Shown one piece after another: positions 7,873 through 51,000 of a stretch of 53,055 bases of DNA. The stretch comes from a virus (Duplodnaviria > Caudoviricetes). The stretch is from positions 1 to 53,055 of the IMG/VR virus record IMGVR_UViG_3300024231_000017; one strand, written 5' to 3'. The notes under the pieces were generated by a model. It made no database searches. It saw only the letters and a program-made list of their open reading frames with translations, and was not told the origin of the DNA. Numbering within the stretch: position 1 is the first letter of the stretch; every line of letters begins with the position of its first letter. A program made the position numbers and the translations under genes.

Positions 7873-8571
7873 TTACCCCATATATCGGGCGTACCCTTTT
7901 ACGGCGCCATACTCAAGGGTTGCTTTGTTAAAAACAAAACCGTAACACCACTTGTACATCCTTGAATCGGCGTCTACGTCATCTGGAATTGGGTATGCCA
8001 AGCCTTTTCTGGTGCAAAACTCTTTGACAGCTTGTGGTGTTGCGGAAATAAAAGCGTCTACCCAGTCAGACATAGTCTCGTCTTGCCTGTGGGTGGTAGC
8101 GAAGAACCAAGCAGGAACAGGTAGCTCAGGCACCTCGAAGTTGACGCGGTTTATGACGCACTTCAGCATCACATCTGTTTGCGTAAGATCAAACTTTAGT
8201 CCGTACCAGCTCTTTAAGTTGTTACGCGGGTAGAAGCAGCCAAACTTTTTTTGCAGCTCCGGAGGTGCGAAGCTAGCAAATTTATAAAAACTGAGGCTAC
8301 TGTTCTGGTATGGCTCTCTATACCCGCCATAGCTTCCTAGTAGGTTATATCTGTTACTAAACCAGTTTTCGTAGTCTGTGTACGCCGCTTGCAACTCAAT
8401 TAAAAGACTCTGTCCTTCAGTAGAAGTCACCGGATAATCTTGCCGAACCATAACGTTATCAACATAAACATCATCGCGCTTAAAGGTCTCTCCCCGCGCA
8501 ATAGATTTATTCAGCCCCAGAATGTCAAGTTCATGGGTTGCCTTAACGTTACGCGGTCCGACTTTGATCAT
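7873..8571 (-). CDS. Hypothetical protein
   Basis: Long ORF, probable ATG at 8571 immediately after upstream stop. Confidence 0.6.
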   Translation of the reverse strand: MIKVGPRNVKATHELDILGLNKSIARGETFKRDDVYVDNVMVRQDYPVTSTEGQSLLIELQAAYTDYENWFSNRYNLLGSYGGYREPYQNSSLSFYKFASFAPPELQKKFGCFYPRNNLKSWYGLKFDLTQTDVMLKCVINRVNFEVPELPVPAWFFATTHRQDETMSDWVDAFISATPQAVKEFCTRKGLAYPIPDDVDADSRMYKWCYGFVFNKATLEYGAVKGYARYMG

Positions 8572-8572
8572 G

Positions 8573-8929
8573 TTACTGCTCCTGAATCTCTGAAATGTCT
8601 TTGTCTTCAAGACCTACACTATTAAACTTACGCAGCAGATGGTCCTCATGATGCTTCAGCAGCTTACCTAAGAATTCGTTGCCGCCGTGATGGTCTAAAG
8701 CCCACTGCAAGATCTGTTGCTGGGTTAGGTCACTGTAGTTAGTGAAGCCCGCGCCCAACTCGTCCGTGTCTAATACCGTTTCCACGGTTCCCACGCTCCA
8801 GACGTCATCGGGGTAGGTAGTATCAAAAAAATTAATCTCCCACCGTACTTCTTTACAAATATCGGTATGACCGTCCTGCTCTGGAATAGTTTTCAGGTCT
8901 ATTAAAGTCGCTTGATAATCAATGTTCAT
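8573..8929 (-). CDS. Conserved fibre-associated small protein
   Basis: 118 aa with FTNYSDLTQQQILQWA motif, of the kind found beside fibre genes. Confidence 0.55.
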   Translation of the reverse strand: MNIDYQATLIDLKTIPEQDGHTDICKEVRWEINFFDTTYPDDVWSVGTVETVLDTDELGAGFTNYSDLTQQQILQWALDHHGGNEFLGKLLKHHEDHLLRKFNSVGLEDKDISEIQEQ

Positions 8930-9638
8930 TTGGTATGTCCTGTAAGGGTATATATTTTGCCAATCCAGTCCTGAGTTTTGCTGCCCGCTTGGCGGTTCTG
9001 GCTGATAGTTTTTCTACTTCTGGCAGCCCTTTAGAAAACGGCAATGCTTTTTCCATAGCGTAAGCAAACATCTCATTACCGTTAGCCTTGCCACTTTCAA
9101 AAACATCGACGTAGTTGAATACCGACGCTTGTTCCGCCAGCATTCCGTAATTCATTGCTTCTCTTGCACTAATCGCCGTTCTTACGATGGCATCACTTTT
9201 GTGATTCATGTGGCGCGGCATCCTTAGCCTTTTTACTTTCCCTAAAACCCCTTCATCCGTTTCCGGTATTCGGACCCAGCGCTTTGGGTTTATGACAAAA
9301 ACTGACAGGTCCATATGTTTTTTATTTGTATCATTCCCAACAAGCCGATATATGTGCCTGTTCTGTGGGCTGTCAGTAAACACTCCAGACCTACTGACAC
9401 AGATGTCATAGCTCTCAAGAAGCGCTCGCTTTGGCAAATCACCATCCTGTATGTCGAGCATAACTCCACTCTTAACGACTAAGCACAACTCGCTAGCATT
9501 ACGTAGCGCAGTCGATATAAAGCCCTTGTCGTAAGGTACTACTTCATAATCCCAGTCAGGCATGTTTGCCTCGATAGACCTAACCGTTAGCGCTTCGAGC
9601 TTGTTGCACTGTACTACCAAAATTTTTAGGCGCGACAT
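8919..9638 (-). CDS. Glycosyltransferase-like protein (GT-A/GT8-like, divergent)
   Basis: LTVRSIEANMPDW N-terminus and DLSVFVINPKRW resembling GT8 NSGV.vinl..W; no clear DxD. Confidence 0.45.
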   Translation of the reverse strand: MSRLKILVVQCNKLEALTVRSIEANMPDWDYEVVPYDKGFISTALRNASELCLVVKSGVMLDIQDGDLPKRALLESYDICVSRSGVFTDSPQNRHIYRLVGNDTNKKHMDLSVFVINPKRWVRIPETDEGVLGKVKRLRMPRHMNHKSDAIVRTAISAREAMNYGMLAEQASVFNYVDVFESGKANGNEMFAYAMEKALPFSKGLPEVEKLSARTAKRAAKLRTGLAKYIPLQDIPNEH

Positions 9639-10500
9639 GTTCATACCTTTTGTACTTCTTGAAAAATTGCATGACTCGGTCATACGGGTTACCAATGGTC
9701 GTGGGTATTAACCCTGAGCTGGGGTCGCTCAAAATAGCCTTAAACCTTTCTGGTCGAAGTTGTCCTTTAACCTCTAACGCCCTGTAGATAGCAGTGTACG
9801 TACACCACTGATCTTTTTTCCCAAACGAGTACACTGTCTTACCTTTCGCTAGCGCTGCCAAACCCATCTCAGAGTTATCACAGAATCCCACAATCGCTGC
9901 CTGCTCCAGAAGCTGATGACCGCTAACTTTCTTTTCTATAACGGCATCGCCATATTTATGCAGCAAATGCTGGAAAGCTGGTGGAGCCGTTAGAGGATGG
10001 CATTTTAGTTTGGCTCCTTGACGCACAGCGTTGTCTATTTTTTTCCAGTCCGTAACTTTGTTTAAGATGTTAGTTCCTGCTAAAAAAACCACAAAATCAT
10101 GCCGATCCCTAGAAGAGCGCAAACGATATTTATCTGTCGTTGAACTCTTTATCGCGTCAAACGCAGCCTCACCCTCATCCGTAATCTCGCTAGTAGCCGC
10201 CTTTGCCATTGCCTCTGATGCAAACTTTTCGCTAGCTACTCGCATATAAAGAAATTGCGTTAACAGGTCTGTATATACATAGCCGTGAATCTTGTCCTCA
10301 TCAAAACTGTACCAAAGGTCGTACTCAACTTTTGTACCCTTATCCCATGTTTTTGGAATAAAGTTTTTCAGATCAATCAAGCCATGCTGGTCAGACGTCC
10401 GTAACACATTCCCGCTTTTAAAGAAGTGGGCTACTGGGTTCCCTAGCTCGTCGTTATCCGCTAACTTCTTCAAGTGCTCTCCTAAGTCTTTCCACCTCAT
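9580..10500 (-). CDS. Glycosyltransferase-like protein (GT-B, capsule biosynthesis KpsS/KpsC-like)
   Basis: LKCHP...LLEQAAIVGFCDNSEMGLAALAKGKTVYSFG matches the HP...LL..a..V...NS..GleAl..GK.V...G pattern; true start probably near 10473. Confidence 0.6.
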   Translation of the reverse strand: MRWKDLGEHLKKLADNDELGNPVAHFFKSGNVLRTSDQHGLIDLKNFIPKTWDKGTKVEYDLWYSFDEDKIHGYVYTDLLTQFLYMRVASEKFASEAMAKAATSEITDEGEAAFDAIKSSTTDKYRLRSSRDRHDFVVFLAGTNILNKVTDWKKIDNAVRQGAKLKCHPLTAPPAFQHLLHKYGDAVIEKKVSGHQLLEQAAIVGFCDNSEMGLAALAKGKTVYSFGKKDQWCTYTAIYRALEVKGQLRPERFKAILSDPSSGLIPTTIGNPYDRVMQFFKKYKRYEHVAPKNFGSTVQQARSANG

Positions 10501-10597
10501 CCTCGAGGTTTGCGATTCGATCTTCTGTTTCGCTGAAATGCTCCATAATCACCTCAAGAGCATTCTCTAGCTTTCCGTTAATATCAGAAAAATTCAT
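10454..10597 (-). CDS. 47-aa coiled-coil protein (possible fibre chaperone), not in ORF track
   Basis: MNFSDINGKLENALEVIMEHFSETEDRIANLEDEVERLRRALEEVSG; ATG overlaps the stop of the Thr-rich gene. Confidence 0.65.
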   Translation of the reverse strand: MNFSDINGKLENALEVIMEHFSETEDRIANLEDEVERLRRALEEVSG

Positions 10598-13008
10598 TAG
10601 TCTTCCGTCCATTGTGAGCCATCCCAATAACGACCGTTATGGGCGCTGCCGCTAGTTACTTCGGTTTGGTTTCCGGTCGCTGTAAGCCGCTCGTAAACAA
10701 CTGTTGATGTATTTCTGTTCGTGGTTGTTGCTCTGCTAGTTCCCGTTAGGTGGTTAGTAGAACGATTAGTCGTTGTGTCAAACGAAGTCGTGAACGCCGT
10801 AGTCGTCGCCTTGCTAGTGCTTGTATCAAACGCAGTCACGTAGCTGGTAGTCGTCGCGTTACTGGTGTCGGTGTTAAACGCAGTGCTAGTAGATTTACTT
10901 GTTCCGTGTGACGTACCAGTCGCATAAGCCGTAGTAGTAGACTTACTTGTTCCTCGCGATGTACCAGTGGCATACGTAGTAGTCGTAGACTTACTTGTGC
11001 CGTGCGATGTGCCAGTGGCGTATGTAGTCGTAGTAGATCTACTTGTGCCGCGAGATGTTCCAGTAGCAGTCAGATACGAAGTAGTCGTTGCCTTACTTGT
11101 GCCTCGACTCGTGTTTGTATTAAACGAGGTGGTGTAGGCAGTAACAGTCGCTTTACTAGTATTTGTATTAAACGAGGTTGTATAAGCAGTAACAGTCGCT
11201 TTACTAGTATTTGTATTAAACGCTGTAGTCGTAGACTTGCTCGTGCCATGAGACGTACCAAACGTAGTTGTATACGAGGTAGTGGTGCCCCTGCTTGTAC
11301 CGTGCGAAGTAGCAAACGTTGTTGTGAACGAGGTGGTCGTAGAATGACCAGTGCCTTTGCTCGTGTTTGTATTGAAGTAAGTAACGAAACTAGTTGTAGT
11401 TGCGTGAGACGTCCCGAACGTAGTCGTTGTATTAAACGAAGTTGTCGTAGCGCGCGAAGTCCCACGCGATGTGTTGTAGCTAGTTGTATAGCTTGTGGTA
11501 GTTGCTCTGCTAGTGCCGCGAGACGTGTTGTAGCTAGTTGTATAGCTTGTGGTAGTTGCTCTGCTAGTGCCTCGACTCGTAGCTGTATTAAACGAGGTGG
11601 TGTAGCTAGTAGTCGTTGCATGTGAAGTACCGCGACTAGTAGACCACGTACTTGAAGAGCTAACAATTCTGTAAATTCGGTACTGGTTAATTATCCCGAT
11701 ATACGAGTTGCCTGTCTGACCGTAGTAATCTCCTCTGTAGTAAGTAGTATTACCAGATGTGATGCTCGTAGTGCCGTTATAGGTGCTGTTGTTGCTAACT
11801 GTCACCCCACCCCAACGCCATACCGCACCCGTAGCCGAAAACTCTTCTATGCGGTTATTGGAGTCGAAGTACCCCCCAGACGATGGTGTCCGCGTTTGAG
11901 ATGTTCCCGATGTGTTGAAGGTCGTCGTGTAGCTAGTAGTAGTTGCATGTGAAGTACCGCGACTAGTAACTGTATTAAACGAGGTGGTGTAGCTCGTAGT
12001 CGTTGCATGTGAAGTTCCGTGACTAGTCCCATAAGTAGTCGTGTAGCTAGTAGTTGTCGATTTACTAGTGCCGTGACTAGTCCCAAAAGTAGTCGTGAAA
12101 CTAGTTGTAGTCGCTCTGGACGTACCAGTTGCCCGACTAGTGTTGTAACTCGTAGTCGTAGCTCGGCTCGTACCACGCGAGGTGCCAGTAGCAAATGTCG
12201 TAGTGTAATTAGTAGTAGTTGCGCGTGAAGTTCCACGACTCGTATTGTACGAAGTTGTGAAGCTCGTAGTCGTTGCATGTGAAGTTCCACGACTCGTATT
12301 GTAAGACGTGGTGTACGCAGTCGTAGTAGCTCTAGACGTGCCCGTTGCAAACGTTGTTGTCGTGGAGTGACTAGTCCCTCTAGAGGTACCAGTAGCAAAA
12401 GTCGTGGTAGTTGAGTGGCTAGTGCCACGAGATGTACCAGTTGCAAACGTTGTCGTGTAGCTCGTAGTAGTCGAGTGCGACGTACCTTTTGTCGTGTTGT
12501 AAGCAGTGACAAAGCTGGTCGTCGTAGCGTGGCTGGTATTCGTATTGTAAGCAGTGACGTAGCTAGTCGTCGTAGCATGGGCTGTGTTCGTATTGAACGC
12601 CGTGGTGTAAGCCGTTGTAGTAGCGTGGCTAGTAGTAGTGTCGTACGCAGTGACATAACTAGTAGTGGTTGCTCTAGAAGTACCAGTCGCAAAAGTCGTA
12701 GTGGTAGAGTGGCTCGTACCACGGGATGTGCCAGTCGCAAATACTGTTGTCGTTGCGCGGCTAGTACCTCGGGAAGTACCTGTTGCAAACGAAGTGGTAT
12801 ATGTAGTCGTTGTGTTAAAAGCGGTTGTAGTAGAGAACGCTGTTGTCGTGCCACGGCTTGTACCGTAGACAGCATTCCAAACTGTGCCAAGCGTGCCGTT
12901 ATTGTTAGCCACTACATAGTTAACGCCATAAAGGGTACCTAAGTCTCCCTTTACAAAAATCTGGGTAGGCTCTTTTAGAGTGCCACTGTCGTTAACTTTT
13001 ATAGACAT
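10597..13008 (-). CDS. Thr/Ser-rich repeat virion fibre protein
   Basis: 803 aa of TSRG/TSHA/TTTSY/TTSFN units flanking a central non-repetitive domain; RBS GGGAAG; in tail module. Confidence 0.8.
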   Translation of the reverse strand: MSIKVNDSGTLKEPTQIFVKGDLGTLYGVNYVVANNNGTLGTVWNAVYGTSRGTTTAFSTTTAFNTTTTYTTSFATGTSRGTSRATTTVFATGTSRGTSHSTTTTFATGTSRATTTSYVTAYDTTTSHATTTAYTTAFNTNTAHATTTSYVTAYNTNTSHATTTSFVTAYNTTKGTSHSTTTSYTTTFATGTSRGTSHSTTTTFATGTSRGTSHSTTTTFATGTSRATTTAYTTSYNTSRGTSHATTTSFTTSYNTSRGTSRATTTNYTTTFATGTSRGTSRATTTSYNTSRATGTSRATTTSFTTTFGTSHGTSKSTTTSYTTTYGTSHGTSHATTTSYTTSFNTVTSRGTSHATTTSYTTTFNTSGTSQTRTPSSGGYFDSNNRIEEFSATGAVWRWGGVTVSNNSTYNGTTSITSGNTTYYRGDYYGQTGNSYIGIINQYRIYRIVSSSSTWSTSRGTSHATTTSYTTSFNTATSRGTSRATTTSYTTSYNTSRGTSRATTTSYTTSYNTSRGTSRATTTSFNTTTTFGTSHATTTSFVTYFNTNTSKGTGHSTTTSFTTTFATSHGTSRGTTTSYTTTFGTSHGTSKSTTTAFNTNTSKATVTAYTTSFNTNTSKATVTAYTTSFNTNTSRGTSKATTTSYLTATGTSRGTSRSTTTTYATGTSHGTSKSTTTTYATGTSRGTSKSTTTAYATGTSHGTSKSTSTAFNTDTSNATTTSYVTAFDTSTSKATTTAFTTSFDTTTNRSTNHLTGTSRATTTNRNTSTVVYERLTATGNQTEVTSGSAHNGRYWDGSQWTED

Positions 13009-13017
13009 GGCTTCCCC

Positions 13018-14634
13018 TTAACCCACTACATACCAAACGTGCCCATTTGCATATCCACTAGCACTTGTAGGAGCTGTAGTGACAACCGATTGTGTGCCTG
13101 CATTATTCAGTTTAGTGTGGTCCGCATCAGTGAACACGTTGGAATCACTGGCGCTTTCTACTAAGGCTCTGATCTCTGCTGCTGTTTGATCCTGTGTCGC
13201 ACCAGACTCAATACCATTGAGTTTAGTGTGATCCGCGTTTGTAAAATTGTTTTGCGATAACTGACCGTCCTGAACTGAGTACGTAGTATCCGTGAACACG
13301 GCACCGGAAGGGACGTCGGTTAAAACTTGAGAGTCATCAACCTTTCCGTCCAGCGCAGTTTGCAGTCCTGTAATAAAACTAATTGAGTGCGCGGATGGGT
13401 GAGAGTAGTTGTTCGCGTTTTCCGCAATGCCGTCCAGCTTTGTACCATCTACGGATACGTCACGACCATCGAACTCCTGCCCTGAAGCAAAGGTAATTGC
13501 TCCGGTCATGGTGCCACCCGCTTTCGGCAGCTTGGTGCCAATGCTGGTGCTTACTGTGGTAGCAAAGTTCGGGTCATCACCCAATGCAGCGGCTAGCTCG
13601 TTAAGGGTATCCATCGTAGCTGGAGATGAATCAACTAGGTTGCTGATCTGCGTTCCGACATATGTCTCGGTAGCGTAGCCAGACAAAGATTGATGACTAG
13701 TTAAATACCCTTCAGTCGAGTGATCACCCCAGCCATAGGCTGTATTCCAGTTAGCAGAGTTATCAGTGAACGGCAGGGAATAGTTGTTCGCGCTTTCGGC
13801 TATACCATCGAGTTTAGTCTTTAGCGTGGCTGTGAAGTTTTTCTGAGTTAAGCCACCGTCACCTACTGAATAGGTGGTATTAGTGTCAGTAGAACTAATG
13901 GTTCCGTCAACAGCTATAGCCACGTTAGTACCAGCGGTCAATGCAGCAACTACATTAGCAGTGTCAGTAACATCAGCGCTAGCCTCTACACCATCCAGTT
14001 TAGTCTTCAGTGCAGCAGTGAAGTTCTTTTCGGTAAGACCACCATCACCTACAGAATAGGTGGTGTTGTTGTCAGTAAAAACTGCATTCTCTGGGACGTT
14101 CGTTAGAACTTGAGAATCGTCTACCTTACCGTCCAGTGCTGACTGCAAGCCAGTTATAAAGCTAATTGGATGAGCCGTTGGATGACTGTACGATGTGCTA
14201 GCGACAGTAAAGTTAGGGTACGTTCCTGTAACACTGGTAGAACCAGATCCAGTTATAGATACAGTTTGATCTGGCGCAGTGTTTGTAAACTCGTTGTCTG
14301 AAACGCTGAGTCCAGAGCCAGCAGTGTAAGTCTGACCAGCATTTCTCAAATCTAGCAAAGCGCCAGCATTAACCCTAAGCGCTATATCAGCTCCAGACGA
14401 ATGACTTACGGCTGTCGTGTCATCTTGACCACGGAGAACTGTAAACGTGGTGCCAGATATCGCAGTAACCTTGACGATCTCAGAACTAGAACCTACTCCT
14501 ATAGTCGCATAGAAGTAATCCCCGCTCTCCAAGGTAGGGAACGAGGCTGCGCTGTTAACACTTATAGACGTTGCCGTATCGGAAACGCCACTAGCCAGCA
14601 ATGAGCTAGCTAGGTTCGAGAACTGAATCGCCAT
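13018..14634 (-). CDS. Tail fibre protein
   Basis: Repeated KTKLDGI.e.A, ITGLQ.ALDGK and APATMDTLNELAAALGDDPNFATT-type fibre motifs. Confidence 0.8.
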   Translation of the reverse strand: MAIQFSNLASSLLASGVSDTATSISVNSAASFPTLESGDYFYATIGVGSSSEIVKVTAISGTTFTVLRGQDDTTAVSHSSGADIALRVNAGALLDLRNAGQTYTAGSGLSVSDNEFTNTAPDQTVSITGSGSTSVTGTYPNFTVASTSYSHPTAHPISFITGLQSALDGKVDDSQVLTNVPENAVFTDNNTTYSVGDGGLTEKNFTAALKTKLDGVEASADVTDTANVVAALTAGTNVAIAVDGTISSTDTNTTYSVGDGGLTQKNFTATLKTKLDGIAESANNYSLPFTDNSANWNTAYGWGDHSTEGYLTSHQSLSGYATETYVGTQISNLVDSSPATMDTLNELAAALGDDPNFATTVSTSIGTKLPKAGGTMTGAITFASGQEFDGRDVSVDGTKLDGIAENANNYSHPSAHSISFITGLQTALDGKVDDSQVLTDVPSGAVFTDTTYSVQDGQLSQNNFTNADHTKLNGIESGATQDQTAAEIRALVESASDSNVFTDADHTKLNNAGTQSVVTTAPTSASGYANGHVWYVVG

Positions 14635-41602: not shown

Positions 41603-42052
41603 CTACATCCCCAGCAAGTAATACGAACCAGCAAACATAGCCAGCACCGCGATTGTTGCACCGATGTTCTTCGCCACATCGCCAATCTGACGCTGCTTCT
41701 TGAGCCTCGCCAACCTAGCCTTCTCCAGCTTGTGCTTGTGATCGAGTAAAGACTTGTTCTGGATCATGAGCATGTCACGCCAGACGTGCTTAGGGGTTAT
41801 CTTCTTCAGCTCTTTCTCGTGCTGCCTGATCGCGTCCTTAGCCCATGCCAGCTCCAGCGCTTCTTCCTGAGTGAGCACATGGTCTCCAGCCTTGGTGGCT
41901 TCTTCGATGCTCTCAACCGCCGTCTTGCTCTCGGTCAGACTGGTAAACAATCCGGTCAATCCCTGTAGGTGATCACCCGACTCCTTAACGGTTTTGATGC
42001 CCTCGTTTAAGGCTTTGAGCACCCCAACAACTGCACTGATCTCAGCTATCAT
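41603..42052 (-). CDS. Coiled-coil protein with C-terminal TM segment
   Basis: 149 aa, coupled to giant protein gene. Confidence 0.6.
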   Translation of the reverse strand: MIAEISAVVGVLKALNEGIKTVKESGDHLQGLTGLFTSLTESKTAVESIEEATKAGDHVLTQEEALELAWAKDAIRQHEKELKKITPKHVWRDMLMIQNKSLLDHKHKLEKARLARLKKQRQIGDVAKNIGATIAVLAMFAGSYYLLGM

Positions 42053-45000
42053 TTCATCTCTCTCTCGGCTTTCCTGTAAGCCTTGTTGTATATGTCGAAT
42101 ATCTTGTTCTCATTCTCCAGCAGCTTGTCCAATAGTTCTCTGCGACGCGCCTCAGGAATATCCTGACTCTCTACCAACTTACGGGTCTTGGATATGCTTC
42201 TTAACTCTCGGTTGGACGCCTTGTAGAGACTGTTGCGCCCACCTTCAATCACGGGGATAAAGGATTGGTACTGGTTTCTGAGTCGGTCCAGCTCGGCTTG
42301 ATCTCCTGCCTCGATAGCATCTTTCAGCTTCGCCTCGATCTTTCTGGTCTCATCCCAGTTGGCATAGAACTCAAACCTGTCTTCGTACTCCGAGGGGCTC
42401 TCAAAGAAGGTGCCAACAATCGGTAAGTCTTGTTTCCTGAAATCCTCGTCCGCCATCATTCTTGCCGCAACGTCTGAAGACTGGCTCACAAAGCGCCCTA
42501 CACCCCCCAAGAAGTATTCATACACATACTCCATCTTGTCTGGGTTCATAGAGATGTAACCGTCCTTGTACTTGTCTCCGCCCGTGGCATCGTTGAGGAA
42601 CTCGGCTGCTGCTGTGAAGGCTTTATCAGTAGACCGTCGAGAGTTGTATGCGTTTGATCGCTCAACAATGAACGGGTTTTGCTCAATGTATATATCGCTA
42701 CCAAAGAAGTTCTTATTAGCCAGCATGTCCAAATGAACTTCGAGCAGGTCAGGATAGAATCCTCGCGCTTTCTCTTCCCAGTTATCGCCGCTAGAGGGAG
42801 CAACCGGAACGAAATTCAGTAACGCGTTCTCCCACAGATACACTGCCGACTCTTCTGGGGTGTTGATGTCGAACGCCATTTCAGCACTCAAGCGACCAAT
42901 ATTGGTGAAGAAGTTGTACCCGTAGGGGGCGGGTAGAGCGAACCCTTCTTCGCTGCTGTAATTGATCAGTAGTGCCCGGTTCTTCGCATGCTCAGGAAGA
43001 TCGGCATAGACCTTCTCGTCATCGTCATCATCTTCTGAGTTCAGAATGTTAATCACGGCAAGTGTAGCCCCTAGACCTATAAGTCCCACTGCCGTTTTCT
43101 GTGCGGTTGTGACCTTGCCTTCGCCGCCACCCAAAGCCTGAGCTATGTTGACATTGCCCTGTACTGCGGCGTTAAAGAACAGGTATCCGGCATTGACTAC
43201 GGCTGTGTTCTCACCCTTACGGTTGAAGTTAACGGTAAGGTCTTTCGCTAATGTCGCTGCGGTCTGCCTATCAGTTCCCGCTTTACGTGCCTCGATGTAA
43301 GCAGACAGTCGTATAGCGTTTTCCATGGTGGTGTTGAAGTCTTCCACCCAGTTACCCACAGCTCGCAAAGCCTCACGGGTCATGCCTTTCTTTAGCTTGT
43401 TCTTCATTATGCGTAACTGCTCATCCTGATCGCGGACCAGCATCATGCCTGTTGACGCACCGTCCTCCATAAACTCTGCCGCATACTGATCTAGAGTGCC
43501 TTCTCTTACAGGCTTACCGCGAAGCACGCGATACATAGACCTCATTGAGGGCAGATAGCTCTGAGCCATTTTCCCGATAAGGTTCTCGCCTTGTACTCTG
43601 CTGCCTTTCTTGTCCTTCTCTGCAAGCGAATACATAAGACCCGTCTGAACATCACGCAGCGGGTTAACCAGCCCCCATGAAGGGTTGTAGTTGATCAACA
43701 TGTTTCTGCGGAATGTTTGGAATCGAGTCGCCAGAGTTAGCAGCTTGCTTACGTCGTCGTTAGCCCTGCTCAGCATGGGCACGCTCATGTTCTGTAGCGC
43801 GTGATTTAGGCTGTCACTCTTAAACTCGATAAAGAATGTCTGCCCACCCTTCTTGACCTCTACATACTTGGGGTCACCGTTGGGTCTAACATCTCTAGAC
43901 ATCTGGTCGAGGTCTTGCTGCGTCAGTTCGTCGCTTGGCTTCGGTGGTCTGAACTTATTGTTGTATATGGTATAGGAGTCGCTGTTACCTAACTCACTCA
44001 AAAGCTCTAATAGGGTTTGGGCGGTTTCATTTTTTCTCGCCCGAATAATTTTTCTCTGAACATCTTCGATAGCGGTAAACAGAGGATTCACAGGCAATGT
44101 CTTTCTACCCTTAGCCCTCATGCTCTCGCTGCCTACGATAGAGAAGCCTCTAGACTTATCGCCAGACTTGTAGGCGTCGCCATTTTCTTCAGCAGCAAAA
44201 CCTTTAAGGGGCACATAGAACTCGTAGGTATCTTCCCAGTCTGAGCGAGAGTCTTCGTCAAGCAAGCCTGCCTCTACCATGCGGTCTCGCTGATACTGAA
44301 GCATCTCGTAGACCTTGTCGGCAATACGGTCCATATCAGCCTTGGTGCCTTCCCGTTCCGCCAAAGCTAGAACGCTCTCCGCCTCGGCATACGTCATCCC
44401 TGAGCCTGTATCTTGGAACGCCAGTGGCAGTGTTTGGTATTCGTTAAGTTTTGTGCGCTGAGTCTCGAGGGCGACACTGTGATCGACACCGACATCTGCC
44501 AATAGGCGCTCTATCTCCCGCTCAGCCCTAGCAATGTTTCTCTCGCGCTGAGCCTTAACCTTTTCAGCAATAACGTCATTGCGCTCCGCCGCGTGCTTCG
44601 CAATAAGGTAGGTTCCTACAGCATCTGGATCGACCTGTAGCTCGGCGATTAAATCACCAAGCGGGTCCACATAGTTTTCGTGGAATGCGTCTAGATCGTT
44701 CTGCACTTTACCGTGCGACAGGTTTTCTTGATCTCTAGGTGACAAGCCAGCAGGAAGCCGCCCCATCTCTAGGAAGTCAGCCGCTTGATTCTCAAAATCT
44801 TCTAAGGGTGCGTAACGGTCCACCAAGGAACGGTATACCTTCTTACCCTTCAGCCTTCTGGCAAGATCAGACTGTGCGTCTATCTCATCATTGTAGCTAA
44901 AGGCATTGGTTGATGGGCTTCCGTCGTCTAGAGTTCCTGTCTCTTTGTTGATCTGCTTCTTCTTGATGTACGAATAATTATCAACATCGTCGTAGACAAC

Positions 45001-48000
45001 GTCTTTGGCTATTACTAGATTTCCTACTTGAATCACTTCACTGGCAGATAAGACTGGGGTCTGGGTAGCCAGATCATAGAAGAAAGTGTGACGCTCTGGG
45101 TTCATGGAAACCTGAGTCCAAGCCGGATCATCCATAGCGGCTATAAAGTCTAGCCTGTTCTGCTCATGATCTGCCGCAACGTAATTACCCTCGATAGTCG
45201 CGATGGTATTTTTATCTGCACCCATGGCTATATTAGTTGCACCTTTTTCTGGAGATGCAAATGAAGCGTTCGCTAGACGCAGAGTTGGGTAGTAACCAAG
45301 ACGAGTACCAGACGCGCCCTTGAAGGGAGCGCCCTCTTTACGAGGTCTCGCCGCATGAGCAGTAACAACATCAGCCCGCTCATCTTTTGATAATGTTGGG
45401 TGGCTGTGGGCGGGGATATCTAGCCTTGAGCCAGTTCTCTGCCCGTCTTCAAGCACATCCGCTAACCAGTAAGTTTCTTTACTAGGTGTGTTCGGCTTTT
45501 CTCTGCTCGTCTTTTTCAGCGCATTGATGTAATGAGAGTCCGGCTTTAACGGAGCAATCATATCGGGATGCATGGGCTTAACATAACGACCTTCTTTTCT
45601 GAAGATGTCATTAAGCTCGGCGGCAGTGATCTTGCGATCAATTCGATCCTGCACCGCTTCCTTTAACTTGGGGGATATTCTTTCTTGCTCGGGTCTACGG
45701 GTCTCACGAATAGACCGCATGCCCTCTTCGTAGGTGTCTACGTAGTAGCCTGTGTCTTTGGTGTAGGGACCAAAGTACTTCGGGTCAACAACCATGAATA
45801 CAACGTCAGGCTCGCCCTTGTTGTAAGGCATGAATGTTCTTTTGTCCCAGTCCGCAGGAGCCTGAGAATCATCCCACTTGAGTCGAGAAACAACCTTGAA
45901 CCCGACATGCTGATAGATAATCGGAAGTTGCGTATCAAAGGCGTCAGAGTACAGCCCGCCCTCCTCAACAGCCAATGATGCCAAAGAGTAGGTTACGTTC
46001 TTGTGCCCGCCGTTGTTATAAAGAGACACTATTGTGTCGCCGTTTTCGATAGCTATTCCAGCTGCGCCATCTTCGGTCATGAACATCTGCATCTTTTGAT
46101 ATTCAGATTCAGGATACACATAGACCGCTGCACCATAGAGGTTGGCGTCTTTTCCTTCTTGAATCTTGCTTGCGAACAGCTTGGCGTTGGTTTTGTTTTT
46201 GGCTAGCTCAATGACTGTGCCGTTAAAGGAATCAACGGCAGCGAGCGCGGCTTTGGCTCCAGTCTCAAGCTCCCTCTTTTTGCCTGATACTTTTTTACCC
46301 GCTACGAGTACTTGAGAATATTTGCTAGCTCCTCGTCGGAAGCGTCTGGGTATATTTCCTTCATTTCCTCCACTCCCGCTATCAGATAGTCGGGGACTAC
46401 GAAGCTCTTTGTAGACTCTGTTTCGCTCATCTCGCCGTCCGGCGCCATTGGGGGGGCTGATTTCAACAGCTCTTTCAGAAGCATATTCTCTTTGAGCTGC
46501 CTCTCTTTCTGAGTACGCATCGACGAGTTCGTCGAGCTTTTGTCTGCTAACGCCTTCTGCTTCATACCAAGGTGTCCCTTTATCAAATTCACTGACTTTA
46601 AAGTCTTTGGGCACTATACCATTCTTGGGTTTAGGTATCTCGTCCAAAAACTTTCTAAATGATTCTTTACTAAACTTGTACATCGTGCCGCTAGATTTGG
46701 GGTACACGTAGTAAGGTGTGCCCTTATCGTCTCTTGCATAAATAGCTGCGGAGCGATACATGTCGCCCTTTCCTTCAGGGGCTCCAATGAATGCGTAGGG
46801 GTTGTCCTTACCAAGGATGTCCTTCTCAAGACCCTGCATGGTTGGGTGAGCAACGATCTGCCCCGAATCCCTTACCCAGCTTTCCCAGTGATAGCGACCA
46901 ATAGACGCATCTTCTGGTCTGCCCAGCTTCGTATACAGCTGCTTAAGTTTTGTGTTGAGGGAGTTCTCTATAGCCTCGTATCGGGCTGAGCCTCGAAGAC
47001 CACTAAACTCATCAGCCAAGTCGGCATAAATATTCTTGCCGTAACGGTCAGAATCCCACATTGAGTTCAGCTGAATACGGTCAAGAATTACCACGTCGTC
47101 ACGACCAATCATCAACTGGGCAAATGAGAAGACCTTGTTGTCTATTCCTGATCCCTGAACAATCAATTGGAATTGACGCCGAACCTCCTGAGTGGACATG
47201 TCGCTGTCAGCCATGATGTCGTGGACGCGCTGTAACTTTGACTGACCGCCGCTGTGCGGCTCTGCCAGCTTCTGCATCAGCTTGCCAAAGTCATTGGCGT
47301 TGGAGATTGCACCACGACCAAAAGAGCCATCAGGTATTAGCTTTCCTACCTGCTTAACCCATGCCTTAACGTCGGCATCGGACACATCGCCATCAAGCGC
47401 TTTCTGTGCCAGATCAGATACGGCAGTGCTTCCTGTCATCAGGTCAACAAAACCAGCTTCCTGACCTGAGGCTGTCTGCCGTCGAGACATCAAGCCCCAA
47501 AGCAGCAACTTGGCAGTGGCGTTAGGAGTCGCATCGCCTGACGCATATAAAGCGCCCATTCTTTCAGCGGTAGCCAAGCCGCGATTGGCAGCCTCTAGCT
47601 GCTCCGGTGTCAGCTTGGCATGAGTCTCTACCCATGAGTCCATGTCATTGTAGAGACGGATCAATCCATATGGCGGGGCTAGGGTTTCGGACTTTCCTGT
47701 TAGGTCTCTCTCAAACGCCAGCCATGCCTCTGGGCTCGATAGGGCGTCAGGGTGCTTAGCCACCACATCGACAGCACGCTGAATCTGCACCTCTGGGTCT
47801 TTCGTGGTGGGGGTAATCTTAACCACAGGCAGGGTCTTTTTCTCTCCAACCGAACCCTTAGACTTTTGCAGTAAGTACTCTGCACCCTTCTTAATAAAGC
47901 TAGGGTCATCAAGCAGGTCTTGATAGAGCTCAAACCTGTCTTCGTAGAGCCAGTCATAAGACATGAACTTGCCATCCTGTAGGATGACGATGTCTTCTTC

Positions 48001-51000
48001 TTCTTTGTTCTCGTCTAAAAGTCTCTGCTTGAGGTTCTCAAACTGATTGTCTTCGAGGGCTTTAAATCTGTGTCGCAACTGCTTTTCAGTCACCGACCCC
48101 TTTTCGTCTATATAGCTCCATGCTTTGAACTCGATATCACCCCCTACTTGCGGGTCTAGAGGGAGGTTGTAAGAATTTTCTCCCGCATCCATCAATTTTT
48201 GGCGGTGGGCTATCAGCTCATCAATGGTTTCCTGCTTGGTCTCGCCCAGCAGCCCATCAAGCGCGTCAATCTTCCCGTCGTCCGAGGTGAAGTAAACCTC
48301 ATCGCCAGCTTCCTTAGCGTCATCATCGAAGTACAGGGTGTAGCGATCACCGTCTGGGAAGGTGACAATGTAGTTGCCAGTTTCTTCGTAGTTAGTGGCT
48401 TTCTTAAAGGTAGGTTTTTTATCGGTAGCCTTGAGGACTACCGGTGTGCGTTCTGGGTCTGCCGCCTCTATTGAAGTGGCAGGTGCGGGCTCTACTTCAG
48501 GCTCTTGTACTTCTGGTCGTTCACGTTGTCCAGCTTCTTCTTGGACCTGTCCCTCCACTGAGGTATCGGCTCTCCCATCTCCAAGGCTTGCTTCGCCATC
48601 TGATCCAGTTGGTTCAGGCTGTACGACCTCGACGCTTCCGGGCTCTGGCGGTGCCCGAACTTCTCCTGATATGCCTTCAGGTTGGGTGGTGTCGGGATTC
48701 TCTTGACTTGGACTCGGTTCATTTGCGGTCTCCTGCACTACGGCAGTTTGTAAGTTGCTGTCTCTAATGTCCTTGATGTAATTATACGCTTGCGGAGCCA
48801 GCTCTTGTAGTTGTTTAGGGTTTGAGTGAAACAGTGCGCCAAGCTGAGCGAACACTTCTTCCCTGTAGTTTGCGTTCAAGCCTGCGTTATCTTGCTCAAC
48901 ATCTAAGATGTCATCGGCAAGGTTGTTAAAGGGGTAGTCAAACCTCTCACCAACAGCTGTACCGTCCACCCAGTTGTCGTAGATTTCCTGCATGATGTCA
49001 CCCATAACAACCGTAGGTGCATCAGCAGCCTCATCTATCTCGATGCCGAATCGACTATCTTTGTCACTCAAGCCCATTGCAAAATCTGCGGCGTGATAGA
49101 CCTCGTGAGTCATGGTCCATGCCAGTTCGCTTAACTGCTCCGAATCAGTGAGTGAGCCACTGAGCAAGTCTTCATTGACAGATATACCCCTAGCGTTACG
49201 ACCCGTCAGAGCCGGAGCATCAACCTCAGACTCTTTGTGTACATACACCCCAGTGACTGAATCCATAAATGACGTTGGTACACCATTAGCCGACAGATCA
49301 GCCATCACGCCCGCTACGCTATCTGTTACTTGAGCAGCGTCATCGCCATAAACCTCATCTATCGTCGGCAGGCTCTTGCCCTTAGGCTTATCTGTGGTGG
49401 CAATCTTTAATGATTCATTGCGATCAAAGATTCTGTCTACGTCGTCCTGATCTATAGCCTCAACAATCACATCGGTATTGTTTGGGTCCATTGCCTCAGG
49501 AGTCGCAGCCTTCATAGACAGCTGCATAAGCTGCTCTTGGACTGGCTGATCGACTGGAGATAGCTCACCATCCCATCGGTGTGCTGGACCTGCGTCTCGT
49601 GTACCCTCGGATACAGCTACACCCCCAAATGCTGGGGCTGGCTTGAAGTCATCTACTATGTCTGACTGCGGGGGCTGAGGTGAAGGGGGTAATGTGTTTT
49701 CCCCGAATCCGGTATTTTGCGTATCCGCAGACACGGCAGGCTCTGGAAGATCGCCTTCGGGAAGATCGATAGGCTCTTCGGCGGCATTGAAGTCTAACAG
49801 TCTGGCTTGGTTTAGCTGCTCTTCTGTGTAAGGGCGATTGGTCTCAGGGTCTAGTGCGCCTTCAGCGTTCCATGTTGTGGCTAACTCGCCAGTGATTGGA
49901 TCAATAGGGCGCTCACTTGGGACCATATCGCCAAGGCTTGTGCGACCATTAGCTGCGTTGTCTCTAGCAACCTCGTACATTTGTCTTATTCGACCAGCAA
50001 ACTCAGGATCATTTACAGATCGAGTCCGAACCTCTTTCGCTTCGTCTCCAAGGTCAACGTCGGAATTGTAGCCTCCGGTTGCCGCCTTAGCTCCGGCGCC
50101 GACAACACCCGTAGCGCCGCCAAACAAGAATCCTGCTGCCGCTGACTCAACAAGCGCATTTCTTTTCTGCTGATTGTTGATGTAGTCGAAGTAATCTCTG
50201 GTCTCATTTTCGCTGTAGTTATTGTTAACGAAAGATATAACCTCTTCCTCAACAATGAGCTGCAATGCTTCAGTCCCGCCCTCAACGCCCATCTGAGTGG
50301 TAACGTCCTTAACAAACTCCCCGACCCAAGCAGGCTTGTCGTTTATTGCTCCCGATATAAACTCGCCAGCCTCATCTACCTTGCCTTTAGGGAGGAACTT
50401 GCTTAAAGCACTAAAGGCAGGAATAGCGTTAAGCGACCCTATCGCCAAGCCAGATAGAACTGCTGCCTTTGGAGCCTCTACCCCAGTCTCATCTAACGTC
50501 CTAGCAAACGTGCTTGACGCACCCTGCTGTGTCCCATACGCCAAGGCACCAGCTGTCGCTCCCCTAGTGCTGATCTTTTTGACTTTATCTTTCGCAAACC
50601 GATCTGCCATATTGCGGGCAATCTTTTCCGCAGCTTTATCCTCTATACCCTCTTTAATTAGTCTCTCTGTTGCCTGCTTGGACAGAGTGTCCGCCATCTC
50701 GGTGACGCCTTTCTTTACTGCGGTTTTAGCAAGCAATCCGCCAGCTCCCGCACTAACAGTCATCATGGCTAGGTCAGGCGCGACAGAACCCAGCGTATAG
50801 GCAGCCCATGCCCCAAAGTCAGTGGCACTATCTATGTCCTGAAACGTACTGTCCGGCTGGTATTGTTGGGCTTCGGCAGTTTTATCTTGGTAATACTGCA
50901 TGCCCTCAGAAACCATTTCTTCATCGTCAAGCGCAGAGCCTGCCAGAGCCTTAAGACCTCCGCCGAGAGCTTTAAAGTTAGCAAGTCCGCCCTTAAATCC

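What the first reader, a model, noticed from the sequence alone, without database searches (positions are those of the whole stretch)
10597..13008. 803-aa Thr-rich protein with mirror-complementary arms: a predicted giant beta-hairpin fibre
Seen: a non-repetitive ~87-aa domain (about 11640-11900) sits in the middle, with arms of about 320 aa each side. The arms are built from basic units (B: TSRG, TSHA, TSKS), aromatic units (A: TTTSY, TTSFN) and 2-residue spacers (x). Reading outward from the centre, the N-arm is A A B B x A A B B A A B B A A B x B A B B x A and the C-arm is B B A A x B B A A B B A A B B A x A B A A x B. Over this stretch every aromatic unit faces a basic unit and spacers align. 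Inference: the chain folds back into a two-stranded antiparallel ribbon zipped by cross-strand cation-pi pairs, up to ~100 nm if fully extended (~0.33 nm per residue), with the central domain as a distal tip and both termini at the virion. This is unlike the usual trimeric phage fibres.
Basis: partly seen in the sequence, partly recalled or inferred. Interest (0 to 1): 0.88.

Follow-up and report, generated by a model that had tools for sequence, protein, structure and literature searches.

The report
Mirror-coded fold-back phage fibre protein
A threonine-rich tail-module protein of an uncultured marine phage has two 320-residue halves that match residue for residue when one is read backwards, and its relatives keep that match, so the chain very probably folds back on itself into a long thin fibre with a variable binding domain at its far end.

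Summary
The 803-aa ORF (10597-13008, minus strand) obeys one rule over both arms. Residue i faces residue 823-i, giving 60 aromatic:basic pairs against 31 at the next best register. None of 20,000 shuffles of unit order reached 60.

The rule is not explained by periodicity or by a DNA palindrome. In 44 of 46 full-length family members (301-1062 aa) the best register sits exactly at the conserved N- and C-terminal anchors. Some relatives have an aromatic-rich N arm opposite a basic-rich C arm.

The pairing code is Thr:Thr and aromatic:Arg/Lys/His/Asn/Gln, with His almost only opposite Tyr. One face of each arm is Thr plus these residues. The other face is Ser/Thr/Ala/Gly/Asn. The arms contain no Pro.

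The termini are conserved (82-100% in close relatives) and the central 90 aa are variable (27-43%).

Best reading: an antiparallel fold-back beta fibre with a distal tip domain. AlphaFold2 gave no usable arm model, so the physical form and oligomeric state are unknown. The closest published analogue is the T4 gp37 needle.

This scan has already reported the same kind of mirror-coded fibre in at least eight other phage genomes. This is a podovirus version with a large tip domain.

The parts
12865..13008 (-). N-terminal conserved segment (residues 1-48, ends ...TVWNAVY). Proposed to form half of the proximal attachment domain.
   Evidence: 83-96% identical in close relatives and 44-59% in distant ones. 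AF2 pLDDT 61-75 with short strands. Serves as the anchor for the register.
11911..12864 (-). N arm (residues 49-366). Built of 14-20-aa Thr-rich units. All aromatic and basic residues sit at even positions.
11641..11910 (-). Central non-repetitive all-beta domain (residues 367-456). Proposed distal tip.
   Evidence: AF2 pLDDT 69-90 over residues ~380-450. Only 27-43% identical among relatives whose termini are 82-100% identical. Shared skeleton W.GG...GG.TY.RG...Y.I.R. No clear fold match: best Z 3.6.
10696..11640 (-). C arm (residues 457-771). It is the mirror complement of the N arm (i+j=823). All aromatic and basic residues sit at odd positions.
10600..10695 (-). C-terminal conserved segment (residues 772-803, YERLTATGNQTEV...RYWDGSQWTED). 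Proposed other half of the proximal domain. The stop codon is at 10597-10599.
   Evidence: 82-100% identical in close relatives. Weak DUF2510-like motif, E 0.0026, below Pfam's cut-off.
13009..13017 (-). 9-nt spacer with a GGGGA Shine-Dalgarno-like motif between the stop of the upstream tail-fibre gene and the ATG.
13018..14634 (-). Upstream tail-fibre gene (538 aa). Its last ~37 aa are conserved next to the fibre gene in related loci.
   Evidence: phrog_24456 tail fiber protein, E 1.3e-72. Synteny and 67-88% identity of its 3' end in the 23 loci with DNA upstream of the fibre gene, of 24.
8919..10500 (-). Two downstream genes (306 aa at 9580-10500, 258 aa at 8919-9695). They always follow the fibre gene and carry only weak glycosyltransferase-like leads.
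   Evidence: Synteny. Pfam Capsule_synth E 0.1, below cut-off. ESM Atlas leads: PF05159 in 13% of one cluster; PF00535 in 17% of another; TM ~0.5 to GT2 clusters.

Best explanation
The gene encodes a virion fibre of an uncultured marine podovirus of the HMO-2011 / CRP-9 / HTVC033P type. The polypeptide folds back on itself. The 318-aa N arm and the 315-aa C arm run antiparallel as extended beta strands in one fixed register, with residue i opposite residue 823-i.

One face of the paired strands carries Thr:Thr rungs alternating with aromatic:basic rungs (Phe:Arg, Tyr:His, Tyr:Lys). The other face carries only small polar residues (Ser, Thr, Ala, Gly, Asn).

The variable 90-aa all-beta domain at the turn is the distal tip and probably binds the receptor. 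The conserved first 48 and last 32 residues come together at the base and attach the fibre to the tail, perhaps to the conserved C-terminal end of the neighbouring tail-fibre protein.

Fibre length is tuned in evolution by adding or removing units in both arms at mirrored places.

Shown here: the register, the pairing code, the covariation, and the conserved-ends/variable-centre pattern. Inferred: beta conformation, physical contact, which end is distal, and the length (about 0.33 nm per arm residue, so about 105 nm here and about 21-150 nm across the family). Open: whether the ribbon stands alone or whether three hairpins pack their small-residue faces together as in the T4 gp37 needle.
For: 1. 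One register explains all the arms. 60 aromatic:basic pairs at i+j=823 against 31 at the next best. 0 of 20,000 unit-order shuffles reach 60; their maximum is 40.

2. Family test. In 44 of 46 full-length sequences of 301-1062 aa (window included), the best register equals anchorN + anchorC + 3. With the 40 residues next to each anchor and the central 90 aa left out, this still holds in 33 of 35 non-redundant sequences. Arm lengths therefore change only in matched pairs.

3. Covariation at fixed offsets from the anchors in 35 non-redundant sequences:
- 329 aromatic:basic and 246 basic:aromatic
- 0 aromatic:aromatic and 2 basic:basic
- both orientations seen at 41 of 142 offsets

4. This is not just a self-complementary unit. 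In L005/L006/L018 the N arm is aromatic-rich (TSNATTTAFNTTTTFG) and the C arm is basic-rich (TSRATGTSRATTTSFN), and they still pair.

5. Pairing code:
- opposite an aromatic: R/N/K/H/Q in 699 of 751, and Thr in only 14, although Thr is 58% of that face
- opposite a basic: F/Y/W/V/I in 606 of 625
- opposite Thr: Thr in 2276 of 2342
- His faces Tyr 85 times and Phe 2 times, against 52 expected

6. Strand-like pattern. All units have even length, so the two-residue alternation is never broken. Face A is T/R/F/Y/H/K in 315 of 318 residues and face B is S/T/A/G/N in 299 of 318. There is no Pro in the arms.

7. Topology. In the 18 closer relatives, N-terminal identity is 83-96%, C-terminal 82-100% and centre 27-43%.

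8. Context. The gene sits in the structural module, directly after a tail-fibre gene and with a coupled start. Synteny is kept in related loci.

9. Mirrored recent duplications. Two tandem 16-aa units lie at 191-222 and two at 601-632, and 191+632=823.

10. Published precedent for an out-and-back fibre: the T4 gp37 needle (passages read).
Against: - No structure supports the arms. AlphaFold2 gave the arms pLDDT of about 30 with a 35-row alignment and below 50 in a 333-aa relative with 34 rows.
- The one arm stretch modelled at pLDDT ~50 (630-710) looks solenoid-like. It matches bactofilin at Z 5.1, rmsd 3.3 over 85 residues, and an antifreeze beta-helix at Z 4.8.
- A two-stranded ribbon hundreds of residues long without a hydrophobic core has, to my knowledge (recalled), no solved precedent.
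- Exceptions to the pairing rule exist. L013 needs a 20-residue shift in its distal half.
- In run X16 the only contig over the N arm lacks 48 nt (residues 194-209), while that run's C-arm contigs equal the window. That would be an unpaired unit.
- Covariation cannot tell pairing within a chain from pairing between chains.
- The counts are over related sequences, so they are not independent events.
Confidence: 0.7

Rival explanations
1. The mirror register is real, but the pairing is between chains. The N arm of one subunit zips antiparallel to the C arm of another, as a domain-swapped or head-to-tail dimer or oligomer. The centre would then lie mid-rod rather than at a tip.
For: Covariation cannot tell intra-chain from inter-chain contacts.
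Against: The termini are conserved and the centre is hypervariable. That fits a base and a tip, not a mid-rod domain. The first 48 and last 32 residues are always brought to the same axial level by the register, as expected for one composite base domain. A rod with two identical ends is an odd design for a tail fibre (inference).
Confidence: 0.1
2. Each arm is a beta-solenoid with one 16-18-aa unit per coil, like ice-nucleation or antifreeze proteins or bactofilin. The two solenoids merely lie side by side.
For: The period of 16-18 aa and the Thr-x-Thr patterns fit. The AF2 model of residues 630-710, at pLDDT ~50, resembles solenoids at Z 4.8-5.2.
Against: Unit lengths vary among 14, 16, 18 and 20 aa in irregular order. 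They fall to 10 aa (TSRSTTTSFN) in relatives with the same ends, which is too short and too uneven for stacked coils (inference). The in/out alternation has no turn positions and the arms have no Pro. Side-by-side solenoids would need matched coil numbers, not the residue-exact match that includes 2-aa spacers. The matches are weak (Z about 5) and lie in a low-confidence stretch.
Confidence: 0.08
3. The arms are disordered, mucin-like Ser/Thr spacers that are O-glycosylated by the two neighbouring glycosyltransferase-like proteins. The pattern reflects glycosylation sites rather than strand pairing.
For: 51% of the residues are Ser+Thr. AF2 pLDDT is low.
Against: Disorder cannot explain a residue-exact mirror register with compensatory swaps across 46 sequences. 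About 20% of arm residues are aromatic or basic and there is no Pro, unlike mucin-type linkers (recalled). Glycosylation and a folded ribbon are compatible, so this is more an addition than a rival.
Confidence: 0.05
4. The complementarity is a by-product of tandem periodicity. Any BBAA array read outward from a break looks complementary, so the pattern has no structural meaning.
For: The canonical unit is its own mirror complement. Registers shifted by one unit (k+-16) still give about 30 pairs.
Against: 0 of 20,000 unit-order shuffles reach the observed 60. The register is fixed to the anchors in 44 of 46 sequences with very different arm lengths. Arms with unlike composition still pair.
Confidence: 0.01

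Closest known systems
Needle (domains D10-D11) of the phage T4 long-tail-fibre tip protein gp37 (Bartual et al. 2010, as described in passages of PMC9659904 and PMC6957217)
   Same: Each chain runs out to a receptor-binding tip and returns antiparallel. The proximal 'collar' D10 is made of an N-side segment (811-881) and the C-terminal segment (1010-1026), and the tip lies mid-sequence. The ends are conserved and the tip is variable.
   Different: The gp37 needle is short (D11 is residues 882-1009). It is a trimer held by seven iron ions bound by His. Here the arms are 64-448 aa, there is no HxH motif, and there is no sequence or Pfam similarity. The arms are Thr-rich repeats with a side-chain pairing code and modular paired length changes. 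The oligomeric state is unknown.
Thr-rich C-terminal half of the 'baseplate wedge subunit protein' of Stenotrophomonas phage vB_SmaS-DLP_6 (KU682439.2 151407-155270; P0009)
   Same: This is the only named isolate protein found by sequence (E 4.1e-6, 39% identity over 40% of the query). Its residues ~710-1240 show the same mirror code, with 37 pairs at one register against 20 at the next best.
   Different: It is fused to a ~510-aa baseplate-wedge N-terminal part of a contractile-tailed phage. It has only a short turn instead of a 90-aa tip domain, and different termini. No structure or function is reported in the record.
Mirror-coded fold-back fibres reported earlier by this scan in other phage genomes (notes e1-6182940, e1-6125737, e1-6103141, e1-6170875, e1-6063792, e1-6111377, e1-6134061)
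   Same: They share the Thr-rich arms, the Thr:Thr and aromatic:basic mirror code, and paired changes in relatives.
   Different: Those are baseplate (gp7-like) fusions or T5-like tail-module proteins, mostly with a short turn. This one is a free-standing podovirus gene with a conserved two-part base and a large variable tip domain. These are unchecked AI notes, not publications.
Beta-solenoid repeat proteins (bactofilin 2n3d, Ca-dependent antifreeze 3p4g, pentapeptide repeats)
   Same: Thr-rich short repeats of similar period. There is a weak structural match to a low-confidence stretch of the model (Z 4.8-5.2).
   Different: Solenoids have constant coil length and parallel ladders. Here unit length is irregular and the long-range rule is antiparallel.
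Single-layer beta-sheet of Borrelia OspA (recalled, not checked here)
   Same: A solvent-exposed antiparallel sheet without a hydrophobic core, stabilised by cross-strand side chains and rich in Thr/Lys.
   Different: OspA has a few short strands between two globular domains, not a ribbon of hundreds of residues.

Membership tests
T4 gp37 needle-type receptor-binding tip | Chain goes out to the tip and returns antiparallel; proximal domain built from an N-side and a C-side segment | tested here: met
   Met at sequence level only. There is a fixed mirror register from anchor to anchor, and the two end segments are conserved. No structure is available.
T4 gp37 needle-type receptor-binding tip | His-x-His motifs that bind iron along the needle axis | tested here: not met
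   No H.H motif in the 803 aa. His occurs singly, opposite Tyr.
T4 gp37 needle-type receptor-binding tip | Sequence or profile similarity to gp37-type families | tested here: not met
   Pfam: only DUF2510, E 0.0026, below cut-off. PHROGs: 0 families. PDB sequences: 0 matches at E<=1.
T4 gp37 needle-type receptor-binding tip | Homotrimer | not testable with these tools
   Needs native mass or EM. See Tried and rejected for the one modelling attempt.
Beta-solenoid repeat proteins | Constant coil length with in-register parallel ladders | tested here: not met
   Units of 14, 16, 18 and 20 aa occur in irregular order. Relatives have 10-aa units. The long-range rule is antiparallel.
Beta-solenoid repeat proteins | Solenoid fold | tested here: inconclusive
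   Residues 630-710 of the AF2 model (pLDDT ~50) match solenoids at Z 4.8-5.2. The rest of the arms have pLDDT ~30.
Mucin-like disordered Ser/Thr linkers | Low-complexity Ser/Thr/Pro composition without positional order | tested here: not met
   Strict two-residue alternation, no Pro in the arms, and 39% aromatic or basic residues on one face.
Mirror-coded Thr-rich fold-back fibre module (DLP_6 baseplate-wedge extension and this scan's earlier cases; not a curated family) | Thr:Thr and aromatic:basic pairing at i+j=constant over both arms | tested here: met
   60 pairs here. The same rule holds in P0009, P0005, P0038 and P0043.
Mirror-coded Thr-rich fold-back fibre module (DLP_6 baseplate-wedge extension and this scan's earlier cases; not a curated family) | Relatives change both arms in step | tested here: met
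   44 of 46 sequences keep the anchor-fixed register over arm lengths of 64-448 aa.
Phage tail fibre (virion structural protein) | Encoded in the tail/structural module and present in virions | tested here: inconclusive
   The position after a tail-fibre gene and within the portal-to-tail module is shown. Virion presence was not tested.

The most novel reading that the evidence does not exclude
A single polypeptide forms a free-standing, two-stranded (single-layer) beta ribbon about 100 nm long here, and 20-150 nm across the family. It has no hydrophobic core. It is held in register by a side-chain pairing code: Thr:Thr, Phe:Arg, Tyr:His/Lys, aromatic:Asn/Gln. This would be a protein counterpart of an RNA stem-loop, whose length evolves by compensating unit insertions in both strands. 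It may be decorated by the two glycosyltransferase-like neighbours.
Probability: 0.3. Interest if true: 0.92.

Novelty: new variant of a known kind. Interest (0 to 1): 0.8.

Why it matters
If the fold-back ribbon is real, it is a fibre design principle not described in the papers and libraries I searched. The design is a long, thin, length-adjustable stalk written in a simple residue pairing code that can be read from sequence alone.

- It would explain a large set of Thr-rich 'hypothetical' proteins in marine phage genomes.
- It would give a sequence-only way to find the receptor-binding tip, which is the centre of symmetry.
- It would allow assembly errors in these repeats to be checked, because the register acts as a checksum.
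- It is a natural case where AlphaFold2 fails on a highly regular sequence although strong covariation exists.
- For protein design, it would be a programmable beta-zipper of chosen length.

The family spans arm lengths of 64-448 residues with the same ends. It is therefore a ready-made series for testing how fibre reach affects adsorption.

Tried and rejected
**Structure prediction.**
- AF2 on the full protein with alignment A1 (35 rows) gave mean pLDDT 40.1 and arms of about 30.
- AF2 on the 333-aa relative P0057 with A3 (34 rows) gave mean pLDDT 47.8 and arms below 50.
- Neither gives a usable arm model, and coordinates and contact maps are not available to me.
- Complex prediction with three copies of P0057 (alignment A3) returned 'no answer' with score 0.00 in two runs, and no controls were folded. 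This says nothing about oligomerisation.

**Fold searches.**
- Foldseek against PDB with the full model: nothing at E<=0.001.
- VIA wide with the full model: only the weak solenoid-like rows for 630-710.
- VIA wide with the P0057 model: best Z 3.6, so the central domain has no clear match.
- BFVD: best E 7e-3, TM 0.18, to a 'Gp38 domain-containing protein'. I treat this as noise.

**Sequence libraries.**
- Pfam: nothing above cut-off.
- PHROGs: 0 families.
- PDB sequences: 0 matches for the window protein and 0 for P0009.
- tblastn against isolated phages: no match for the whole protein (the low-complexity filter is on) and none for its first 49 residues.

**DNA-level explanation.** This is rejected. 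No inverted repeat joins the arms. By inspection of codons, the reverse complement of Thr codons (ACN) gives NGT, not Thr.

**Literature.** Six full-text searches found no paper describing Thr-rich mirror-complementary fibres.
- The search 'HMO-2011 + tail fiber + threonine' found 0 papers.
- Tentaclins (PMC10743442, passages) and the CASP13 S16 gp37-gp38 text (PMC6851490, passages) are unrelated.
- RBPseg (PMC12143355, passages) lists needle-type classes but nothing like this.
- PMC3004832 had no relevant passage.
- Supplements were not opened. Subscription journals are not covered.

**Neighbour genes.** Searching the PDB with the 258-aa and 306-aa proteins gave nothing meaningful.

**Rows dropped.**
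- Of 102 fetched proteins, 47 carry neither anchor motif. These are other families, such as the T4-like baseplate proteins and the Hint-type P0092-P0100.
- 29 carry only one anchor and are fragments.
- L015, L016 and L020-L022 are cut genes.
- None of these entered the 46-sequence count.
- The correct count is 44 of 46 (entry 4).

**Reads.** Contigs cannot prove that one molecule spans the whole gene, and no listed piece spans it.
Full report
**What is there**

The window is a complete 53,055-base virus record, 100% complete by CheckV. Its portal is 33-36% identical to portals of Pelagibacter phage HTVC033P, Roseobacter phages CRP-9, CRP-345 and others, and Sinorhizobium phage phiM6. It is therefore a marine podovirus of the HMO-2011 type. 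That group name is recalled and supported by the abstract of PMC6256558 in the listing.

The ORF at 10597-13008 on the minus strand is 803 aa. It follows a 538-aa tail-fibre gene (phrog_24456, E 1.3e-72) after a 9-nt spacer with a GGGGA ribosome-binding motif. It lies in the portal-to-tail structural block. It has 286 Thr, 123 Ser, 2 Pro and no Cys.

Its parts are:
- a 48-aa N-terminal segment
- a 318-aa N arm
- a 90-aa non-repetitive centre
- a 315-aa C arm
- a 32-aa C-terminal segment

**Checking the observation**

I classed residues as aromatic (FYW) or basic (RKH) and counted aromatic:basic pairs for every possible mirror register i+j=k. k=823 gives 60 such pairs with 2 aromatic:aromatic and 1 basic:basic. 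The next best registers (807, 839) give 31 and 29.

The canonical 18-aa unit (TSRG TSHA TTTSY TTSFN) is its own mirror complement, so a perfect tandem array would show the pattern trivially. But the arms are not perfect arrays. They mix units of 14, 16, 18 and 20 aa that lack one basic or one aromatic sub-unit or carry 2-aa spacers, and these irregularities sit in mirrored order.

Shuffling unit order within both arms 20,000 times gave a mean of 23.5 and a maximum of 40 pairs, and none reached 60. There is no DNA inverted repeat between the arms. The reverse complement of Thr codons cannot encode Thr, so the symmetry exists at protein level only.

**Relatives**

Three searches produced relatives:
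- the representative library: 43 hits at E<=0.001, mostly fragments
- the word-indexed search for shorter proteins: 64 hits
- a scan of IMG/VR: 24 loci

Together they gave 45 further full-length family members of 298-1062 aa. All share the N-terminal segment (ending ..TVWNAVY) and the C-terminal segment (VYERLTATG..RYWDGSQWTED). They differ in arm length (64-448 aa per arm) and in the centre.

I used the two conserved motifs as anchors. In 44 of 46 sequences (window included), the best mirror register is exactly anchorN + anchorC + 3. The two exceptions are:
- L013, whose distal half needs a 20-residue shift
- P0072, a tie at 6 pairs

The conserved stretches beside the anchors might have forced this result. 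I therefore left out 40 residues next to each anchor and the central 90 aa. 33 of 35 non-redundant sequences still peak at the anchor register (the exceptions are L013 and a 3-versus-3 tie in P0024).

**Covariation and the code**

Because the register is anchored, positions can be compared across relatives without an alignment. Over 35 non-redundant sequences, one search found:
- 329 aromatic:basic and 246 basic:aromatic cells
- no aromatic:aromatic cells
- 2 basic:basic cells
- 116 aromatic:neutral and 20 basic:neutral cells
- both orientations among relatives at 41 of 142 offsets

On the face that carries these residues:
- an aromatic faces R, N, K, H or Q in 699 of 751 cases, and Thr in only 14, although Thr makes up 58% of that face
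- a basic residue faces F, Y, W, V or I in 606 of 625
- Thr faces Thr in 2276 of 2342

His faces Tyr 85 times and Phe twice, against 52 expected. These counts are over related sequences and are not independent events. The absence of clashes is nevertheless striking.

In L005, L006 and L018 the N arm is aromatic-rich and the C arm basic-rich, and they still pair. This rules out a purely self-complementary unit.

**Strand character**

All unit lengths are even. Aromatic and basic residues therefore sit only at even positions in the N arm and odd positions in the C arm over more than 300 residues. One face is T/R/F/Y/H/K in 315 of 318 residues. The other is S/T/A/G/N in 299 of 318. The arms contain no Pro. 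This is what long uninterrupted beta strands look like (inference).

**Topology**

In the 18 closer relatives, the N-terminal segment is 83-96% identical to the window's and the C-terminal segment 82-100%. The central 90 aa are only 27-43% identical. The centre keeps a common skeleton and is the only confidently modelled part, at pLDDT 69-90 and all-beta. Conserved ends with a variable centre fit a base that docks on the virion and a distal tip that meets the host.

The last ~37 aa of the upstream tail-fibre protein are also conserved beside the gene in the 23 loci with DNA upstream of the fibre gene, of 24. It may be the docking partner (speculation).

**What I could not show**

AlphaFold2 gave no usable arm model in two runs. 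One arm stretch at pLDDT ~50 looks solenoid-like at Z about 5. Fold searches found no relative of the central domain. The physical form therefore remains inferred. It could be a lone two-stranded ribbon, a trimer of hairpins packing their small-residue faces as in the T4 gp37 needle, or an inter-chain zipper.

I rate the solenoid rival low for three reasons:
- unit length is irregular and drops to 10 aa in relatives
- the match between arms is residue-exact, including spacers
- the long-range rule is antiparallel

I rate the disorder/mucin rival low because disorder cannot produce compensatory covariation.

**Natural variation**

The gene's words are held by 20 seawater runs of 2018, six of them RNA libraries. 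Contigs of X11 (DNA) and X12 (RNA library) tile the gene with no differences. No single contig spans it, and an RNA library is not proof of transcription.

In X16 the only contig over the N arm comes from a related strain (10 substitutions). It skips 48 nt in frame at 12382-12429, which removes residues 194-209. These are one of two tandem 16-aa units. That run's C-arm contigs equal the window, and no joint is seen at the mirrored place.

The window itself has two tandem 16-aa units at 191-222 and two at 601-632, exactly mirrored (191+632=823). Their DNA identity is 36 of 48 and 44 of 48. I read this as a paired duplication, with the X16 strain as a possible one-sided intermediate. It is equally a possible counter-example, together with L013. 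The variant still gives 52 pairs at a single shifted register.

**Comparison with what is known**

The closest published design is the T4 gp37 needle. It is a six-stranded antiparallel needle in which three chains run to a head domain and back. Collar D10 is built from residues 811-881 and 1010-1026, and seven irons are bound by His (passages in PMC9659904 and PMC6957217). The present protein works like it in topology but is not a member of the family. It has no HxH, no sequence similarity, arms up to seven times longer, and a repeat-encoded pairing code.

By sequence, the only named relative is the Thr-rich C-terminal half of the 'baseplate wedge subunit protein' of Stenotrophomonas phage DLP_6. 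It shows the same mirror rule, with 37 pairs against 20. So do small proteins such as P0043 (20 against 14).

After I had reached my reading, look-ups of this scan's earlier notes showed that other agents had described the same kind of mirror-coded fibre in at least eight other phage genomes. This is therefore a recurrent, apparently unpublished module. The present case adds a podovirus, free-standing form with a two-part base and a large variable tip.

**Verdict**

I class it as a new variant of a known kind (out-and-back fibre). There is a fair chance (about 0.3) that it is a genuinely new structural principle. Interest 0.8.

Noticed in passing
window 8919-10500 (-), also 7873-8929: Four genes always follow the fibre gene in related loci: 306 aa, 258 aa, 118 aa and 245 aa. 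The 306-aa protein has a faint Capsule_synth hit (E 0.1) and an Atlas lead. The 258-aa protein has GT2-like Atlas leads (TM ~0.5). The 118-aa protein is DUF7936 (E 3e-8). The 245-aa protein has a faint sulfotransferase hit (E 0.089). This may be a fibre-modification or assembly module. None of the enzyme assignments reaches a curated threshold.
   Followed up: partly
window 12382-12429 (N arm, residues 194-209): In RNA-library run X16 the only contig covering this part comes from a related strain. It lacks exactly one 16-aa unit in frame, and no matching deletion is seen at the mirrored C-arm place (about 11122-11169). This is either a one-sided intermediate of a paired length change or a counter-example.
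   Followed up: partly
window 12343-12438 and 11113-11208 (residues 191-222 and 601-632): Two tandem 16-aa units with identical protein sequence in each arm sit at exactly mirrored positions (191+632=823). DNA identity between the copies is 36/48 and 44/48. This looks like a paired duplication.
   Followed up: partly
L013:4001-5131: This is the only full-length relative whose distal half needs a 20-residue register shift. It is either a real unpaired unit or a collapsed repeat in a metagenome assembly.
   Followed up: partly
window 13018-13128 (3' end of the 538-aa tail-fibre gene): The last ~37 codons of the upstream tail-fibre gene are 67-88% conserved next to the fibre gene in the 23 loci with DNA upstream of the fibre gene, of 24, while the rest of that gene varies. 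It may be the docking site for the fold-back fibre or a recombination boundary.
   Followed up: no
proteins P0092-P0100: This is a different family of ~355-366 aa. A Thr-rich aromatic/basic repeat region is followed by a Gly run and a C-terminal part that looks like a Hint/intein-type domain (C..EGT ... HNH), a resemblance recalled and not tested. It has no mirror arms.
   Followed up: no
proteins P0043, P0046: These are small proteins (273-302 aa) with other termini. They show the same arm - ~100-aa centre - arm layout and mirror code (P0043: 20 pairs against 14). The module is therefore used by several unrelated fibre families.
   Followed up: partly
window 10600-10632 (residues 793-803): The C-terminal RYWDGSQWTED resembles the core of Pfam DUF2510 (E 0.0026, 17.9 bits, below the 24-bit cut-off).
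   Followed up: no
window 42049-51186 (-): There is a 3045-aa ORF in this 53-kb podovirus genome. I did not analyse it.
   Followed up: no
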